A stretch of DNA of 9,749 nt from Azolla caroliniana (taxonomy: Eukaryota > Plantae > Polypodiophyta): contig JBHGNT010001334.1 of NCBI GenBank assembly GCA_043228905.1, forward strand, positions 1 through 9,749, written 5' to 3'. The translations under genes were made by a program, and so were the position numbers. The notes under the pieces are model-generated. The model made no database searches, was not told the origin of the DNA, and saw only the letters and a list, made by a program, of their open reading frames with translations. This document shows positions 1-8,861 of the stretch, one piece after another; position 1 is the stretch's first letter; every line of letters begins with the position of its first letter.

Positions 1-222
1 ACTTCTAGTATGAAGGGGAATTATGCCATACCTTCTTTTTTATTGCATAGCTTGTAGATTGTGCTCCATTTGTTCCTTATATGATATCATCTGTTTGATC
101 AGATGTTGGTATTAGCTTTTGTATTACAATAGAGGTGAGATGAAATGTCTCCTTCTGTTTTCTATATGTACATTTCTCAAGTAATATACTAAGGTGTATC
201 TTTCTTTAAAAATAAAAAAAAT

Positions 223-720
223 CTTCTACTAAATAATTTCGAGGAATTTATCAAAGAATTTAAGGCTGGCTTCAGAGATACAGATGGGGCAAGAACAACA
301 ATCGACAAGATTCGTACACTATGTCAAGGTAATAAGTTAGCATCGACATATAAAGCCAATTTCCATCTCATCGCAAGCGATATTCCTTGGGATGAACAAG
401 CCCTAATGTAGCAATTTCGTTCCAGCTTTCGTAGTGATGTGAAAGACTTACTTCTTACCTTCCTTGGTGATCCAAAATCACTTAAAGAAGCTGTTAGTTG
501 AGCAATATGGTGTGATAATCACCTTTTTGAGCATCGATGTGAGCGACAACAACAAATAACAAGATTAAGATTCACACCAACTTATGCATCTGTAACAGCG
601 CAATCATCTCCAAGGCAAACATATAGCCCTGCTCCAAGTCCAAGGCAAACACGTAGTCTAGTCCCAATTGATAGTCCTACACCCATGGAGATCGATATGA
701 CCCAACGACGAGGACCGTTA
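223..720 (+). mobile_element. Degenerate Ty3/gypsy (chromovirus, Tcn1-like) gag fragment
   Basis: Frame +1 reads LLNNFEEFIKEFKAGF...LCQG...IPWDEQALM*QFRSSFRSDVKDLLL...PKSLKEAVS*AIWCDNHLFEHR...PTPMEID...RRGPL, the retrotransposon-gag pattern ending in PMEID. Stops at 409-411 and 499-501. Boundaries approximate. Confidence 0.85.
609..668 (+). repeat. Imperfect 30-bp tandem duplication within gag (SPRQTYSPAP / SPRQTRSLVP)
   Basis: tccaaggcaaaca starts at both 609 and 639. Confidence 0.8.
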
Positions 721-3060: not shown

Positions 3061-3196
3061 GCAAATTTGACATTTTAGTATTTTGCCACTTCATCTTTAA
3101 TGCCTCTATTAATCTTCCTCAATTATCAGCAAATTTGACATTTTAGTATTTTGCCACTTCATCTTTAATGCCTCTATTAATCTTCCTCAATTATCA
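3061..3196. repeat. Perfect 68-bp tandem duplication (3061-3128, 3129-3196)
   Basis: gcaaatttgacattttagtattttgccacttcatctttaatgcctctattaatcttcctcaattatca occurs twice, identical. Confidence 0.97.
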
Positions 3197-3280
3197 CGTA
3201 CCTCATAGCATCACCTAGACAGCAACCTATTATGTAGAAGCAGTTAGTAGTACTCAAGTCTAGGAGAAGTGTACTTACTA

Positions 3281-3630
3281 TGTATCCAAAAGTTCAAAAG
3301 CTCAACATTGCAAGGTTGATTATCAAATTCTATACAAAGTGGGGATGGGAACCCACAATTTTTAAAGCTGCCTATGAACCTTTTTTTTTTACCACATATA
3401 TCATACAACTACCATGTTCTCTTTTTTTAATGTATTTTTATAACAAATAGCAGTGCAGATGTAAATGTATTACCAGTGTCCATATGCGTATTGTGTATTC
3501 AGAAGTTTCAAAGCTTATCATTGCAAGGTTGACTATCAAATGATATTATACTTGTGAATAGGGATGGGAACCCACTATTTTTCATACTGCTTATGAAATT
3601 TCACATTCTCCTTTTTCTACATTTTTATAT
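3281..3630. repeat. Old diverged direct duplication, period about 213 bp (about 3281-3440 and 3494-3630)
   Basis: Shared blocks in the same order: aaagct, cattgcaaggttga(t/c)tatcaaat, gggatgggaaccca, ctgc(c/t)tatgaa, ttctc...atttttata. Confidence 0.88.
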
Positions 3631-4135
3631 AGCACCGCATTTAAAAGAATAACATCTAAAAGAATTCCACCCATCCCTTAAATTTGGTTATTCAAAATAC
3701 TCGAACCTGTGCTCATCGTTTGTCCCCTTGATTTAGTTGGAGTCTGCAGAACCAAACCAATTCGTTAATCTCTCAACTTAATTCTCATTATCAAGTAAAG
3801 TCATATAAATAGTTACATACATTTAGACACATACACTAGAGGGCACACTATAATACACCACTCAAGGGCATTATTGTAAGTTAAACATCATCCAATCCTC
3901 CAGCACCAAGTCATCTATGTGTTGGTACATTTGCAAGTAAGGACCCACAAGGTAACCAGAATCTATGTATATTTTCCTGTACTTGTGCATGTGCCCTTGC
4001 CCTGATGTATCAATACATTATATATATAACACGTGTGTGTATATATTACCTTTAACAGCCTAATGGTTCACATGTATTAAGATTGTTCCTACAAATACAT
4101 AGTTTTACTTGAAACAGTTCATGTATATGAATGTA

Positions 4136-4337
4136 CTAAGAAAACTCTATCATACCACTACAATTTCTTGTTACCATTAACAAACATGCATTTTGTTGTA
4201 TTTCATGATACTCCAGCTCTAGTCCTTGAACTTCATCTTCAAGTTGCTTTATAGTGTGTTGGTATTGTAAAACTTCTTTACTGACTTCATCCAACTGGTT
4301 CTGCATATTCCACGATGTACCCACACACTTTTTTTCT
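4136..4337 (-). CDS. Probable terminal exon 4 of the 7TM gene, encoding a coiled-coil cytoplasmic tail
   Basis: Branch CTGAC, T-rich tract TTTTGTTTTTTTGTTTCC, then acceptor AAG|A in the phase needed by exon 3 (AG+A = Arg). Encodes EKKCVGTSWNMQNQLDEVSKEVLQYQHTIKQLEDEVQGLELEYHEIQQNACLLMVTRNCSGMIEFS-stop(TAG). AAG is a less common acceptor and the intron is 2.3 kb, so linkage is less certain. Confidence 0.68.
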
Positions 4338-4489
4338 CTTGGAAACAAAAAAACAAAATTGTCAGTATCAGAGACTAGTTGAAAATGCATCAATTAAATG
4401 CAAAACTTCCATGATTAATTATTGCATGATTCCTAGCAAGATGAAATGCAGGTTTTCGCTTGAGCTTAAACTTAAGATATTGAAAATAT

Positions 4490-5283
4490 ATTCACTTGGT
4501 TCTCACAAATAGACATCAAGCCTCAAGTAAAATTGCTTCATAACTTGCACTTATCTCTCGATTCAGAATTCACCAGAGTAGTGGACTAAACATGAATGTG
4601 GTTAAAACAAAAATGATGATACTGTGAACCATCCAACCACATCGATACCCTATTCTAACATATAAGGGAGAATAATAACAATTTGTGGAAAGCTTTGAAC
4701 CTAGGCTTCAAGCTGGTTGGAAAATTTATTATATGTTGGAGAATCAACGCAACTAAAGTAATATTGATGGATGGGAAGTGAAAAACTATTGTTATTTAAA
4801 ATCCCATGGTAATAATTCAAGTCTTGCTTTACGGAGTAGAAGTGTGGGGAGGTACTATCAATCTTAATGCATTGAAAGAGATTGAGAAGATGCCATGGAT
4901 GTTTTAAGGAGACAATTGGGAGTTAAATCCACCACCTCCTACCAAGTTATGCTCTCGGTAATAAGAGTTCAACCCATATAGACATTGGCACTACACTGTG
5001 TATACAGATACATTCCAAAAGTCAAGAATACACCAAATCATAGATTACCACATCTTGCTTGGAATGTTGGATGTAAACTACAAAGGAATCACAAGAGAAA
5101 TTTTACGCTAATCTAGTTGGGTATTTGACGTCAAAATATGGTTCAAAAAGATGGGGTGTGGAAGATCTCTTAGAGATTTCAAGGGATATTATGCAATATG
5201 TCGTTATTGATGAATGGTTAATGGAAACACTAAGGAACAAGTGGGTAGGTGCAAAAAGGGCAAAATTAAAATATGACATTGAG
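4490..5283 (+). mobile_element. Degenerate RTE/RTEX-like LINE fragment in intron 3, antisense to the host gene
   Basis: Reads GLNMNVVKTKMMI (4583)...RLQAGWKIYYMLENQ...QVLLYGVEVWGG (4818)...LRRQLGVKSTTSYQVML...RLPHLAW...WFKRWG...KLKY. Same motif order as the 915-1990 element. The 5' boundary is approximate. Confidence 0.82.
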
Positions 5284-5490
5284 GTCAGCTTTCTAGGTGT
5301 TCTCTTTAGCATGACACTCATGTCATTATCCCTCAATATGTCATCATTGCTTTCATTAATTGCACTATATGATGAGCATGTAAAAAGATAGTGATATTCA
5401 TCCTCTACTAGCCCTTGCTCGCATATTTTTCATGCCTTTATATTTGACACCTTTGATGCCATAATGCAACTTCAATACCTTGCTTGTGTA
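5284..5490 (-). mobile_element. C-terminal cysteine/histidine (zinc-finger-like) segment of a LINE ORF, opposite in orientation to the adjacent RT fragment
   Basis: Minus strand reads ICEQGLVEDEYHYLFTCSSYSAINESNDDILRD...KRTPRKL, matching the C..C....VEDE.H.L..C..Y..IR motif of LINE ORF C-termini. Confidence 0.78.
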
Positions 5491-5694
5491 ATTGAATGCA
5501 AAGGAGTGTAAGGGCTCTACAAGAGTTAATACTCATTTTAGTAATGAGATAAGGTTGAATACAATCAATAGGCATGCTTTCCTTATATTGAGCCCAACAT
5601 TTAGCGTTTTGCCTTATTCACACATTGAGACTTTGTGCTTTGAAGATGATCAAGAAACCCTGTGTACTCAGGTTCCATGGGTCAATATTGACCT

Positions 5695-6308
5695 TGTTAG
5701 ATATAATCAATGATCTATCCCCATATGTACTCTTAGAGTGCACATTTTGTGATAGCACCCCAAATGAGGAGTAGCTATTGTGCAACTTGACCATGGGTCA
5801 ATAAGGTGTCAATCTAGGAAACCGTAGATGTGTAGGACACAATGTATTTAAGAAAGAGTGAAGTAGGTTAATAGGATTGGCTAATCAAGTCAACTAGAAG
5901 AATATTTTGTGGGCAAGTTACGATGTACTTAGTCTTGAAGTATGTGTCATTGACTTAAGATAAGTACTATCTAGCACTAGCTTGTATCTACGGAGCTGGG
6001 TCATATTAAATGACAAGTCAATTGACAAAAGAGGAATCTCTCCACTACTATCAACCGACATGCACATTTAATGTTACACTCAGACCAAACAGATAATATA
6101 ATCCACTCTCTTACACAGTGGTGTGATGATTATCAGTCCCCACTAATTTTGTAGTGAGCTGGTCCAGATCCCATCTAAGCTCTAGGGTGTGAGCACATGG
6201 GTGAACTACCATTGTGAGCTACTCTCACATGTAATAGAAGTTTGTTTTTATATATCCATCTCTGTGATTGTAACTCTATATACTACTTGATTCTCAATAT
6301 TCCTAACA
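5695..6308. mobile_element. Solo LTR, 614 bp, in intron 3
   Basis: Starts TGTTAG and ends CTAACA (TG...CA with a 6-bp perfect terminal inverted repeat). Flanked by GACCT (5690-5694) and GGCCT (6309-6313), a 4/5 match to a 5-bp target-site duplication. No internal retroelement coding sequence adjacent. Confidence 0.72.
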
Positions 6309-6653
6309 GGCCTCTCTATGGATGCTAAAACATATATATCTATCACCATGCGGTTATTAAGGGATAAACACCAAAAGTATCTTTCACCTGTTTATGTATT
6401 TACGAGAATACTTTTAAGGGCTTTTAAACAGTACCAAAATATCATCTATGGTAGCAATTCTTTTGTTTGCTACTACACAAGGGCTATTCTGGCAAAAGTT
6501 TAAAAACCAATGGGAAATCTAGGATACCCAAAAAAGATTAGGGTACCTTGAGTATTTTTCCCTTTAAATTTTACAGGATCTCCATACTTTGCTTTAAGTG
6601 ATAAATGCGTAAAAAACTAAAGAACAGTTGCAGAAGATAGGTCATCTTGCTAC

Positions 6654-6896
6654 CTTTCATGCTGACTGGATGTTCGTCGAAGAATCAAACGACATCTCTC
6701 CAAATATTCATCAGGATCAACCAAGGAGTGATAAATAACCACACCATTTCTTGCCCAAAAATAGTAAAAAACAGTGCTTGCTACGGCTGCCGATAGAAAG
6801 CATCGACCCACTTCCCCGAAATAGGCTTCAGTCTGAAATGTCACCATTGCCTGCAGAGCTAGAAACAATAACAGTGTACCACCTCTTCGAATCAAC
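6654..6896 (-). CDS. Exon 3 of the 7TM gene (TM6, TM7, juxtamembrane helix)
   Basis: Acceptor TGTCAG|G, donor AG|GTAGCA; 243 nt, phase 2-2. The join reads YDEFR-LIRRGGTLLLFLALQAMVTF...GRCFLSAAVASTVFYYFWARNG...DPDEYLERCRLILRR. Confidence 0.85.
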
Positions 6897-7183
6897 CTGA
6901 CATGATTGCCAACAAGCTTTTATTTTTTATGAAAAATTTCCCAACAAACCATTATAATTAAAAAATCGTGGGAACTATGTTGCTAATCTGGAATCTTGAT
7001 TAGATTTGTAACAAAAGGAATGGCAATTCAGTATTTTTATTTAAATTCCAAATTGTGGATAGCTTGTTTTGGTATTTTTTCCAACATTATGGTGGGATAT
7101 ATTGATAACTTTATCCCTTTTAGGTTTTCAATTTAATATCCTTTATATACAGATTATGGAAGAGAGTATTCCATTAAAACAAC

Positions 7184-7363
7184 CTGAACTCATCGTACTG
7201 AGCAAATTGTTCCTTCATTGCATTTCTGAGCTTAAATGCAAAGCCGAGAAAAATGAGGAAATAAACGACCAGTAGAGTCATTAACCCATATGCTGATATA
7301 GCTCGATTAACAAACTTGCAATGCCCTATATGCTTCTCACCCCTTGATATGTCAATTTCATAA
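7184..7363 (-). CDS. Exon 2 of the 7TM gene (extracellular loop 2 with Cys, TM5, intracellular loop 3)
   Basis: Acceptor GTATCAG|T with branch-like CTGAT about 30 nt upstream; donor AG|GTTGTT; 180 nt, phase 2-2, in frame with exon 1. Encodes YEIDISRGEKHIGHCKFVNRAISAYGLMTLLVVYFLIFLGFAFKLRNAMKEQFAQYDEF. Confidence 0.85.
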
Positions 7364-7633
7364 CTGATACATTTTCCAAATTCAAAGAATACATCAGTCG
7401 TGTTTGCATTCATGGATTCACATTATATAATTCCATTTCTAGCCTTAAACCAAAGAATGAATTCAAACCATGTAAGTTCCATATGAGAGGACAGAAATGG
7501 AGCCAATAGCTATGGTCTCCATTAACTCCTATATGCTTACCCTAAGATACCTTACTCTTATTATGCTTCTTCCACGAGTCTATAAATATACATACACAAG
7601 CATATATACACACACATAAGACACCAATCAAAT

Positions 7634-7659
7634 GAGAGAGAGAGAGAGAGAGAGAGAGA
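7634..7659. repeat. (GA)13 microsatellite in intron 1
   Basis: Direct reading of the sequence. Confidence 0.95.
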
Positions 7660-7948
7660 AGAATATTGTATTTTTTAAATGACCTCTTTCTCTTTCTTGA
7701 ATCTCTAAACTCCAAAATCTATTTTTTAACTTAGTGATATGCTTTTCACAGATATGTATAAAACACTATCAAAAGAGAGAGGGGGAGATTGGCCTTGTTA
7801 TCCGAACTTAAACCTGTGTATGAATGAATTGATGAGTGTACGTACTTATGTATGATTGAGTTTTATATGCACATATGCATGTACATATGTCCCTATGTGT
7901 TTATGTGCAAACACAGACAAACAAAATCAAAATCAGAAGAGTTCTTAC

Positions 7949-8400
7949 CTGATCTCTTTCCTGACTGATCCCACAATGCAGAAGGCGACTGCGGGAAGAA
8001 GAAATGGAAACAAGAGAGCATATCCATGCTTATGGACGCTCCTCTTGCACACAAAGATTCTGTAGAGACGGATGAGGTGAAGAGTGAGGCAATTAAGCCA
8101 CAGAGCAAAGCCAAAACAGGCATCAAGCCAATAGGTCCATAAAGAGCAGAGACTTAAAATAGAGTTTTCTCTTCTCTTGAAGTGCTCGTTCACAATTAGG
8201 GTTGAAAGGATGAAGATGAGGCCACCTGCTGAGCTTAGGAGTGTGATGGGCACGCTCTTGGTTTTGATTGGGGGGAATCTCCTATTGAAGAAGATGGTTA
8301 TGTTGCCTAGTAGCATCAGGAAGGAGCCTATGGCGATGAGGCTTACTGTTGTGTAATCCAAGATTGAAGTCGGGGACGGGGATGGGGATGGAAGAGCCAT
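7949..8400 (-). CDS. Exon 1 of a 7TM membrane protein gene (7TM-RGS1-like / class C GPCR-like membrane domain), TM1-TM4
   Basis: ATG at 8400 preceded by an in-frame TGA (8406-8404). Four hydrophobic segments. CSLWTYWLDACFGFALWLNC...RLYRIFVCKR...YALLFPFLLP matches the pattern I recall for plant RGS1 TM3-TM4 (C.LW..W....GF.L...C......LY.IFV.KR.....Y..L...LLP). Ends at donor AG|GTAAGA, phase 2. Confidence 0.88.
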
Positions 8401-8544
8401 TGATCATGAGAAGGTAATAGCCCACCATCTATTGGGTGGAGAAACAGAGACATACAGAGACAGAGATAGAGACAGGACACAGAGACTCTGTGTGTGGGTG
8501 TATGTGAATGTCATTTAGTCTTGGGCTTTGACCACAGTATGTAC

Positions 8545-8576
8545 ATATGTATATATGTATGTGTGTGTGTGTGTGT

Positions 8577-8644
<68 letters not shown>

Positions 8645-8655
8645 ATGTATGTATG

Positions 8656-8686
<31 letters not shown>

Positions 8687-8692
8687 TGTATG

Positions 8693-8723
<31 letters not shown>

Positions 8724-8815
8724 TGTATGTATGTATGGTATGGTATGTATGTATGTATGTATGTATGTATGTATGTATGTATGTATGTATGTATGTATGT
8801 ATGTATGTGTGTGTG

Positions 8816-8861
<46 letters not shown>
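8545..8861. repeat. Compound microsatellite (TG)n-(TATG)n-(TG)n upstream of the 7TM gene
   Basis: TG tract about 8560-8627, TATG tract about 8628-8806 with few interruptions, TG tract about 8807-8861. It accounts for all the HT/YIHT/VC/MYVC ORFs in the track. Confidence 0.97.

What the first reader, a model, noticed from the sequence alone, without database searches (positions are those of the whole stretch)
4136..8400. Hidden spliced GPCR-like gene: RGS1/class C-type 7TM domain with a coiled-coil tail in place of an RGS box
Seen in sequence: four short ORFs join through phase-matched GT-AG introns (585, 287 and 2316 nt) into a 358-aa protein. It has seven hydrophobic segments, a very short N-terminus, a Cys at the top of TM3 (C85) and a Cys in extracellular loop 2 (C166). 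Established knowledge: plant 7TM-RGS1 carries a C-terminal RGS GAP domain, and class C GPCRs show similar loop motifs (R...IK..S after TM1, R.YRIF after TM3, AFK.R...F.E...I between TM5 and TM6) and the TM3-ECL2 disulfide. Inference: this is a divergent RGS-less member of the family. Its architecture recalls flytrap-less class C receptors such as GPR156, so it is a candidate uncharacterised plant receptor or modulator of G-protein signalling.
Basis: partly seen in the sequence, partly recalled or inferred. Interest (0 to 1): 0.85.

Follow-up and report, generated by a model that had tools for sequence, protein, structure and literature searches.

The report
GABA-B-like receptor family of non-flowering plants
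This spliced fern-type gene encodes a membrane protein predicted to have the seven-helix fold of animal GABA-B-type receptors plus a coiled-coil tail; it belongs to an old family found beside, not inside, the known plant regulator RGS1, and it likely works as one half of a receptor pair that would act on plant G proteins.

Summary
The gene is real. They add two more, so the main product is 374 aa from six exons, not 358 aa from four; no RGS exon exists. The protein has seven helices, the TM3/ECL2 cysteines and a strict heptad coil. A fern homologue's model matches GPR156 and GABA-B best (Z 23). It is not a clipped RGS1. It belongs to a conserved RGS-less clade (A) found in Klebsormidium, liverworts, lycophytes, ferns and conifers; four of these species also keep a true RGS1. 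A sister clade (B) has the same 7TM-plus-coil layout, and A+B group together (100/98) apart from plant RGS1, though sisterhood with RGS1 is not rejected (AU p=0.058). B coils carry Lys/Arg at a core position where A carries a hydrophobic residue next to an acid, which hints at a GABA-B-like A:B heterodimer. Dimerisation, ligand and G-protein coupling are inferred only. Databases auto-label members as family-3 GPCR domain or 'RGS1'. Eight literature searches found no description; two key surveys were unreadable. The scan's index held no look-alike by sequence.

The parts
7949..8495 (-). Exon 1: 5' UTR (8495-8401, as far as the contig reaches) and coding 8400-7949, aa 1-151, TM1-TM4; C85 at 8148-8146
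   Evidence: X1 contig covers 7949-8495 with 0 other letters; Pfam 7tm_3 E=8.6e-6, 26 bits, below the 33.5 cut-off; coordinates
7364..7948 (-). Intron 1, 585 nt, GT-AG, phase 2
   Evidence: joint in 4 of 4 runs; 5 of 5 fragment homologues aligned, of clade A and B type, end within 3 residues of this place
7184..7363 (-). Exon 2: ECL2 with C166 (7320-7318), TM5, ICL3 with E209 (7191-7189)
6897..7183 (-). Intron 2, 287 nt, GT-AG, phase 2
   Evidence: joint in 4 of 4 runs
6654..6896 (-). Exon 3: TM6, TM7, helix 8
4338..6653 (-). Intron 3, 2316 nt, GT-AG, phase 2, filled with multi-copy repeats
   Evidence: joint in 3 of 4 runs; many divergent contigs lie on it
4175..4337 (-). Exon 4: coiled coil, aa about 300-342 (4315-4187); alternative donor at 4156
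   Evidence: heptad period 3.5, 0 of 10000 shuffles as strong
3744..4174 (-).
   Evidence: joints 3743/4175 in X1, X2, X15 and 3743/4156 in X2, X5
3707..3743 (-). Exon 5, 37 nt; read through into a 3' UTR in some runs
3227..3706 (-). Intron 5, 480 nt, GT-AG, phase 1
   Evidence: joint 3223/3704 (cut +3) in X1 and X2, 2 of 4 runs
3099..3226 (-). Exon 6: last codons, stop at 3179-3177, then 3' UTR inside an exact 68-bp tandem duplication (3' end not defined)
   Evidence: X1 contigs cover 3167-3223 and 3099-3196 with 0 other letters

Best explanation
A spliced gene encodes a 374-aa membrane protein predicted to have the class C GPCR fold, with no ligand-binding ectodomain, no RGS box and a coiled-coil tail; it likely works as one subunit of a dimeric orphan receptor, most likely paired through the coil with its sister paralogue (clade B) as GABA-B1 pairs with GABA-B2, and would act on the plant heterotrimeric G protein as a coupling or scaffolding partner rather than as a GAP. 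Shown here: gene structure, absence of an RGS box, membership of an old separate clade, conserved cysteines and a heptad coil (about 0.95). Predicted from a homologue's model: the class C fold (about 0.95). Inferred: dimerisation by the coil (about 0.75), B as the partner (about 0.4), and G-protein coupling through the intracellular loops (about 0.4). Any ligand would have to bind inside the helix bundle, or the receptor would be ligand-free; neither was tested.
For: Splicing. Fold: AF2 model of the Ceratopteris orthologue (54% identical over the 7TM), pLDDT 81. Foldseek's top 10 hits are all class C (GPR156, GABA-B, CaSR; TM by query 0.51-0.59). VIA-align gives Z 23.0-23.4 for GPR156 and GABA-B, against 18.0 for the best class A chain. 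A profile of 39 relatives hits GABA-B2 at E=1.3e-16 and aligns the TM3 Cys, ECL2 Cys, 3.50 basic residue and 6.35 acid. Both Cys are invariant in 18 of 18 clade A and 6 of 6 clade B proteins; the 6.35 acid is Glu in 17 of 18 A. Pfam 7tm_3 passes its cut-off in 8 of 18 homologues and RGS is found in 0 of 18. Tree: window in A (98/90), A+B 100/98, plant RGS1 a separate clade 100/100. A and B align over 351 columns including the coil (E=1e-79). B occurs by name in 5 of the 13 named species that have A. The core 'a' position of heptad 4 is K/R in 8 of 9 B coils and hydrophobic in 14 of 16 A coils (Asn in 2). The preceding 'g' is E/D in 11 of 16 A and K/R in 5 of 9 B. A simple charge score that counts a-g' pairs favours A:B in 4 of 5 same-species pairs, with 2 of 5000 label permutations as low. 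Class C receptors are dimers, and the GABA-B coil promotes heterodimer assembly and surface trafficking (PMC8163086, passages).
Against: No biochemical or genetic data exist here. With classical g-e' pairs alone the A:B advantage vanishes (mean -0.17; 1232 of 5000 permutations as low), and the permutation ignores relatedness. B was not shown in this organism (no genome held) nor by name in 8 of 13 A-bearing species, including Marchantia and Ceratopteris; the library keeps one protein per 50% cluster, so this is undecided. The TM7 proline of the class C FxPKxY motif is missing in 17 of 18 A proteins. The window has His, not Lys/Arg, at 3.50 (Arg in 10, His in 7, Asn in 1 of 18). Plant G-alpha subunits self-activate and need no GEF (PMC3386157, PMC3718340; passages), so a classical GPCR role is not required. 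The window's own full protein was not folded; the model is of a homologue. B's model matches class C only weakly (best E=8e-4, class A interleaved).
Confidence: 0.4

Rival explanations
1. Homodimeric, ligand-free, constitutively active receptor in the manner of GPR156: the coil pairs A with A, and loss of the 3.50-6.35 salt bridge keeps it active.
For: GPR156 is the top hit by fold and by language-model features (0.92). It is a flytrap-less, constitutively active homodimer lacking the ionic lock (PMC11621567, passages). The window and 6 other A proteins have His at 3.50. A coils have an all-hydrophobic core compatible with self-pairing.
Against: 10 of 18 A proteins keep Arg at 3.50 with Glu at 6.35; the TM3-ECL2 cysteines absent from GPR156 are invariant here. 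It leaves the basic core residue of the B coil unexplained.
Confidence: 0.2
2. G-protein-independent role: a class C-fold scaffold, trafficking factor or lipid/metabolite sensor that uses the coil to bind an unrelated cytoplasmic partner.
For: Plant G-alpha needs no GEF, and earlier plant GPCR candidates lack proof of GEF activity (PMC3718340, passages). The TM7 motif is degenerate. Many protist and fungal-type relatives have neither RGS nor an ectodomain (RGS in 7 of 89 scanned).
Against: Residues tied to activation and coupling in class C (basic ICL1, 6.35 acid, basic end of TM5) are conserved. Close relatives by profile score include 7TM-RGS fusions, which act on G-alpha.
Confidence: 0.25
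3. Partner or decoy of RGS1: it dimerises with 7TM-RGS1, or recruits an RGS protein in trans as GPR158 does with RGS7, and so tunes GAP activity.
For: Plant RGS1 is the first row of the Atlas structure search (TM 0.67). A+B+RGS1 as one clade is not rejected (p-AU 0.058). Four species have both genes. GPR158-RGS7 precedent: PMC8611064, abstract start only.
Against: Marchantia polymorpha has clade A but is reported to lack RGS (PMC3386157, passages). The best tree separates A+B from RGS1.
Confidence: 0.13
4. An ordinary RGS1 whose RGS exons lie downstream, or a decaying RGS1 copy.
For: RefSeq names the Cryptomeria clade A protein 'regulator of G-protein signaling 1'.
Against: The contig reaches a stop in exon 6. 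An RGS-box profile finds nothing in 429 six-frame segments of the window (best E=1.8) nor in any A or B protein. Full-length homologues are mostly 331-427 aa with the same coil. Cryptomeria's true RGS1 is a different gene.
Confidence: 0.02

Closest known systems
GABA-B receptor subunits GB1/GB2 (class C GPCR)
   Same: 7TM fold (Z 23.0-23.4), best sequence-profile hit among solved chains (E=1.3e-16), TM3/ECL2 cysteines, 6.35 acid, C-terminal coil after a linker, two paralogues
   Different: No Venus flytrap (N-terminus about 14 aa); no TM7 FxPKxY proline in clade A; 13-16% identity; ligand, dimer and G-protein coupling untested
GPR156 (flytrap-less orphan class C GPCR)
   Same: Top Foldseek, VIA-align and Atlas-feature hit; short N-terminus; ionic lock possibly broken
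   Different: GPR156 lacks the TM3-ECL2 disulfide and has Ser at 6.35 with Lys at 3.50 (PMC11621567, passages); the window keeps both Cys and Glu at 6.35 but has His at 3.50
Plant 7TM-RGS1 (AtRGS1 type)
   Same: Homologous 7TM (35-96 bits with the family profile); both Cys, the 6.35 Glu and the Arg at the top of TM7 are shared; AtRGS1's 7TM is already reported to resemble class C (PMC11580166, passages)
   Different: No RGS box, a coil instead; 16-23% identity; separate clade; coexists with RGS1 in four named species
Protist 7TM and 7TM-RGS proteins (Palpitomonas, Ancoracysta, Muranothrix, Anaeramoeba)
   Same: Highest-scoring non-plant relatives (168-198 bits); same loop motifs
   Different: They end in an RGS box or in low-complexity tails; the profile match mostly stops before the A/B coil; uncharacterised
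Database entries of the same family (Ceratopteris KP509_19G053100, Marchantia Mp1g05640/MARPO_0005s0043, Selaginella LOC9657419, Klebsormidium KFL_001160190, Cryptomeria SUGI_1162060)
   Same: Orthologues, 33-52% identical over the full length for those aligned
   Different: Only automatic names (hypothetical, 'family 3 profile domain-containing', 'regulator of G-protein signaling 1'); the Marchantia ids appear in 0 papers of the library

Membership tests
Plant 7TM-RGS1 | C-terminal RGS (PF00615) GAP domain | tested here: not met
   Stop reached in the contig; no RGS hit in exons, in 18 homologues, or in six frames with a custom RGS profile
Plant 7TM-RGS1 | 7TM falls inside the plant RGS1 clade | tested here: not met
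   RGS1 100/100 excludes the window; window in A 98/90
Plant 7TM-RGS1 | Sister group to plant RGS1 (common plant origin) | tested here: inconclusive
   Best tree separates them; AU p=0.058
Class C GPCR | 7tm_3 domain and class C helical fold | tested here: met
   Exon 1 alone E=8.6e-6, below the cut-off; 8 of 18 homologues above it; homologue model Z 23 to GPR156/GABA-B
Class C GPCR | TM3-ECL2 cysteine pair | tested here: met
   C85 and C166 invariant in 18 of 18 A and aligned to the GABA-B2 cysteines; the bond itself was not measured
Class C GPCR | Ionic lock K3.50-E/D6.35 | tested here: inconclusive
   E209 present; 3.50 is His108 in the window, Arg in 10 of 18 A; positions by alignment, not by coordinates
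Class C GPCR | FxP(7.50)KxY motif in TM7 | tested here: not met
   Pro absent in the window and 17 of 18 A; present in 6 of 6 B and 11 of 11 RGS1; the register is uncertain by one residue
Class C GPCR | Large extracellular ligand domain (flytrap, Cache); absent in GPR156 and GPRC5 | tested here: not met
   TM1 starts at about residue 15; the contig extends 95 nt upstream without an in-frame ATG
Class C GPCR | Obligate dimer | tested here: inconclusive
   Heptad coil shown; partner preference only from a charge score that depends on the terms counted
Class C GPCR | Activates a heterotrimeric G protein (GEF activity) | not testable with these tools
   Needs nucleotide-exchange or BRET assays

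The most novel reading that the evidence does not exclude
Streptophyte algae and non-flowering land plants keep a true class C GPCR: an A:B heterodimer built like GABA-B but without flytraps, which drives or gates the heterotrimeric G protein. It would be the missing upstream regulator in RGS-less Marchantia and was lost in flowering plants, which would explain why searches in Arabidopsis and rice never found a plant GPCR.
Probability: 0.17. Interest if true: 0.92.

Novelty: new variant of a known kind. Interest (0 to 1): 0.72.

Why it matters
Whether plants have GPCRs is still called controversial (PMC13185490, passages), and how RGS-less lineages such as Marchantia control their G protein was flagged as open (PMC3718340, passages). 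This family gives a concrete candidate with a class C fold. It is conserved from Klebsormidium to conifers and has an orthologue in two transformable models (Marchantia Mp1g05640, Ceratopteris KP509_19G053100; transformability recalled). Knockouts and G-protein assays are therefore direct tests. It also shows that at least one 'RGS1' database label in a conifer is wrong, and it bears on where class C receptors and 7TM-RGS proteins came from.

Tried and rejected
Complex prediction of Psilotum A with Psilotum B gave no verdict (scores 0.10 and 0.06 against a mark of 0.34; alignments were not used, controls not folded); it is evidence neither way, and the homodimer was not tried. phmmer of exon 1 against PDB sequences: 0 hits. 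The family-only profile against PDB hit only generic coiled coils, best E=0.0011. The first tree was a quick tree with RGS1 rows clipped by the profile; I replaced it, which used 37 rows (8 A, 5 B, 8 RGS1, 4 protist RGS, 12 others) of the 67 prepared, long branches and near-duplicates left out; it holds no animal class C outgroup. The acid/base coil idea fails on g-e' pairs alone. P0029 was dropped from the coil counts because its register could not be matched, and fragments or isoforms P0011, P0016, P0018, P0019 were left out of the heptad test. No flowering-plant or moss name appeared among the named A/B hits, but only 30 proteins were looked up by name and many hits are unnamed, so absence is not shown. 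No fern RGS1 appeared, also not evidence of absence. Twelve listed exon differences in related runs (4 silent, 8 not) are a truncated list and say nothing on selection. No genome is held, so copy number and a B gene in this organism were not checked. The Atlas look-up of a B protein was unavailable. Mohanasundaram 2022 and Bradford 2013 could not be read. The eLife 2025 survey (PMC12716839) scanned Cryptomeria with PF00003; only one small supplement was held, with no match, so its lists may include this family. Two earlier scan notes on Naegleria 7TM-RGS genes did not bear on the reading.
Full report
Observation. The window holds a minus-strand gene starting at 8400. Contigs from public runs skip them exactly: the first two in 4 of 4 runs laid, the third in 3 of 4. 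One 1230-nt contig of run X1 shows 0 other letters on the pieces listed. The X1 form is 374 aa with its stop ending at 3177; other forms give 367 or 355 aa. All share the 7TM and coil, and none carries an RGS box. An RGS profile built from 7 boxes found nothing in 429 six-frame segments of the window (best E=1.8) or in the joined models.

Anatomy. Hydropathy gives seven peaks, weak for TM6 and TM7. Exon 1 alone hits Pfam 7tm_3 at E=8.6e-6. Of 18 homologues, 8 pass the Pfam cut-off and none hits RGS. The Ceratopteris orthologue folds with pLDDT 81 into seven helices, a helix 8 and a 43-residue tail helix. Its best structural matches are GPR156 and GABA-B (Z 23.0-23.4), then mGlu and GPR158 (20-21), then class A (18 or less). 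The Atlas gives GPR156 first by features and plant RGS1 first by structure. A profile of 39 relatives aligns to GABA-B2 (E=1.3e-16) and maps C85 to the TM3 cysteine, C166 to the ECL2 cysteine, H108 to 3.50 and E209 to 6.35. The class C meaning of these positions comes from PMC11621567 and PMC8163086 (passages). The TM7 proline is missing in 17 of 18 clade A proteins. The tail has a strict heptad repeat across 16 family members (period 3.5; 0 of 10000 shuffles as strong).

Family. Homologues with the same layout occur in 13 named species: Klebsormidium, four liverworts, two lycophytes, four ferns and two conifers. The window's nearest relatives are fern proteins (52% to Pteridium and Adiantum). 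A profile search of 1.84 billion representatives gave 467 hits at E<=0.001. After clade A came a second plant clade, B, with the same 7TM and a homologous coil, named in Riccia (two species), Psilotum, Diphasiastrum, Selaginella and Adiantum. Then came protist 7TM and 7TM-RGS proteins, and only then plant RGS1. In a 37-row 7TM tree the window lies in A (98/90), A+B is supported at 100/98 and plant RGS1 is a separate clade at 100/100. Forcing A+B+RGS1 together costs 10.9 log-likelihood units and is not rejected (p-AU 0.058). Selaginella, Diphasiastrum, Cryptomeria and Klebsormidium hold both a true 7TM-RGS1 and clade A. So this is an old paralogous lineage and not a broken RGS1.

Mechanism. Class C receptors work as dimers, and the GABA-B coil promotes heterodimer assembly and masks an ER-retention signal (PMC8163086, passages). 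Here two paralogues carry homologous coils with a fixed difference. The core 'a' position of heptad 4 is Lys/Arg in 8 of 9 B coils but hydrophobic in 14 of 16 A coils, and the 'g' position before it is acidic in 11 of 16 A. That a core lysine disfavours self-pairing and is satisfied by a neighbouring acid is recalled from leucine-zipper work, not from a call. A crude charge score supports A:B only when such a-g' pairs are counted (2 of 5000 permutations); on g-e' pairs alone it does not (1232 of 5000), and relatedness is ignored. I therefore take an A:B dimeric orphan receptor acting on the G protein as the most likely mechanism, at 0.4. Rivals are a G-protein-independent scaffold (0.25), a GPR156-like constitutive homodimer (0.2), an RGS1 partner (0.13) and an ordinary RGS1 (0.02). 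Marchantia has clade A but is reported to lack RGS (PMC3386157, passages), which argues against a role that depends on RGS1. Plant G-alpha self-activates, so coupling, if present, may be scaffolding or gating and need not be nucleotide exchange. B was not shown in this organism.

What is known. That the AtRGS1 7TM resembles class C is in print (PMC11580166 and bioRxiv 10.1101/2025.09.10.672744, passages). UniRef labels some members 'family 3 profile domain-containing' and RefSeq calls the Cryptomeria one RGS1. Eight full-text searches and a ninth for structure-based plant GPCR surveys listed no paper describing RGS-less class C-type proteins of non-flowering plants. I read passages only of PMC3386157, PMC3718340, PMC3971589, PMC12017998, PMC13185490 and PMC12716839 and saw no such description. 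Two surveys most likely to mention them (Mohanasundaram 2022, Bradford 2013) and most supplements of PMC12716839 were not available, and the library lacks most subscription papers. The scan's own index had no look-alike by sequence.

Verdict. It is a new variant of a known kind: a class C-fold, ectodomain-less, RGS-less two-paralogue family of streptophytes, apparently undescribed. Interest 0.72, because it offers a direct test of the long-open question of plant GPCRs, while its function remains inferred.

Noticed in passing
window 193-411 (+), with 502-765: Relic of a Ty3/gypsy-type retrotransposon gag (Pfam Retrotrans_gag E=1.2e-7), interrupted by a stop.
   Followed up: partly
window 4560-6400 (intron 3) and about 900-2800: Multi-copy repeat DNA: many divergent contigs lie on it. 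The decayed frames at 4800-5430 look LINE-like by eye (recalled motif); Pfam found nothing.
   Followed up: partly
window 3061-3196: Exact 68-bp tandem duplication; the stop codon of exon 6 lies in it, and it breaks the transcript contigs.
   Followed up: partly
window 3276-3378 and 3489-3597: Older duplication with a spacing of about 215 bp (81-86% identity) inside intron 5, which is a 3' UTR in the read-through form.
   Followed up: no
window 8453, 8428, 8407 (-): Three out-of-frame upstream ATGs in the 95-nt leader; their frames (36, 48, 41 aa) overlap the main start and may damp translation.
   Followed up: no
window 8537-8859 and 7634-7659: Long GT/GTAT microsatellite just upstream of the transcript's 5' end, and a GA run in intron 1.
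   Followed up: no
proteins P0009 and P0180 (Cryptomeria japonica): RefSeq names the RGS-less clade A gene 'regulator of G-protein signaling 1' although a true 7TM-RGS1 exists separately; a likely mislabel.
   Followed up: yes
proteins P0174 and P0082 (Selaginella): Gene models suggest two adjacent clade B copies fused in one annotation.
   Followed up: no
proteins P0041, P0073, P0145, P0055: Non-plant relatives fuse this 7TM to RGS plus leucine-rich repeats, to a CD36 domain, or to degenerate RGS-like tails.
   Followed up: no
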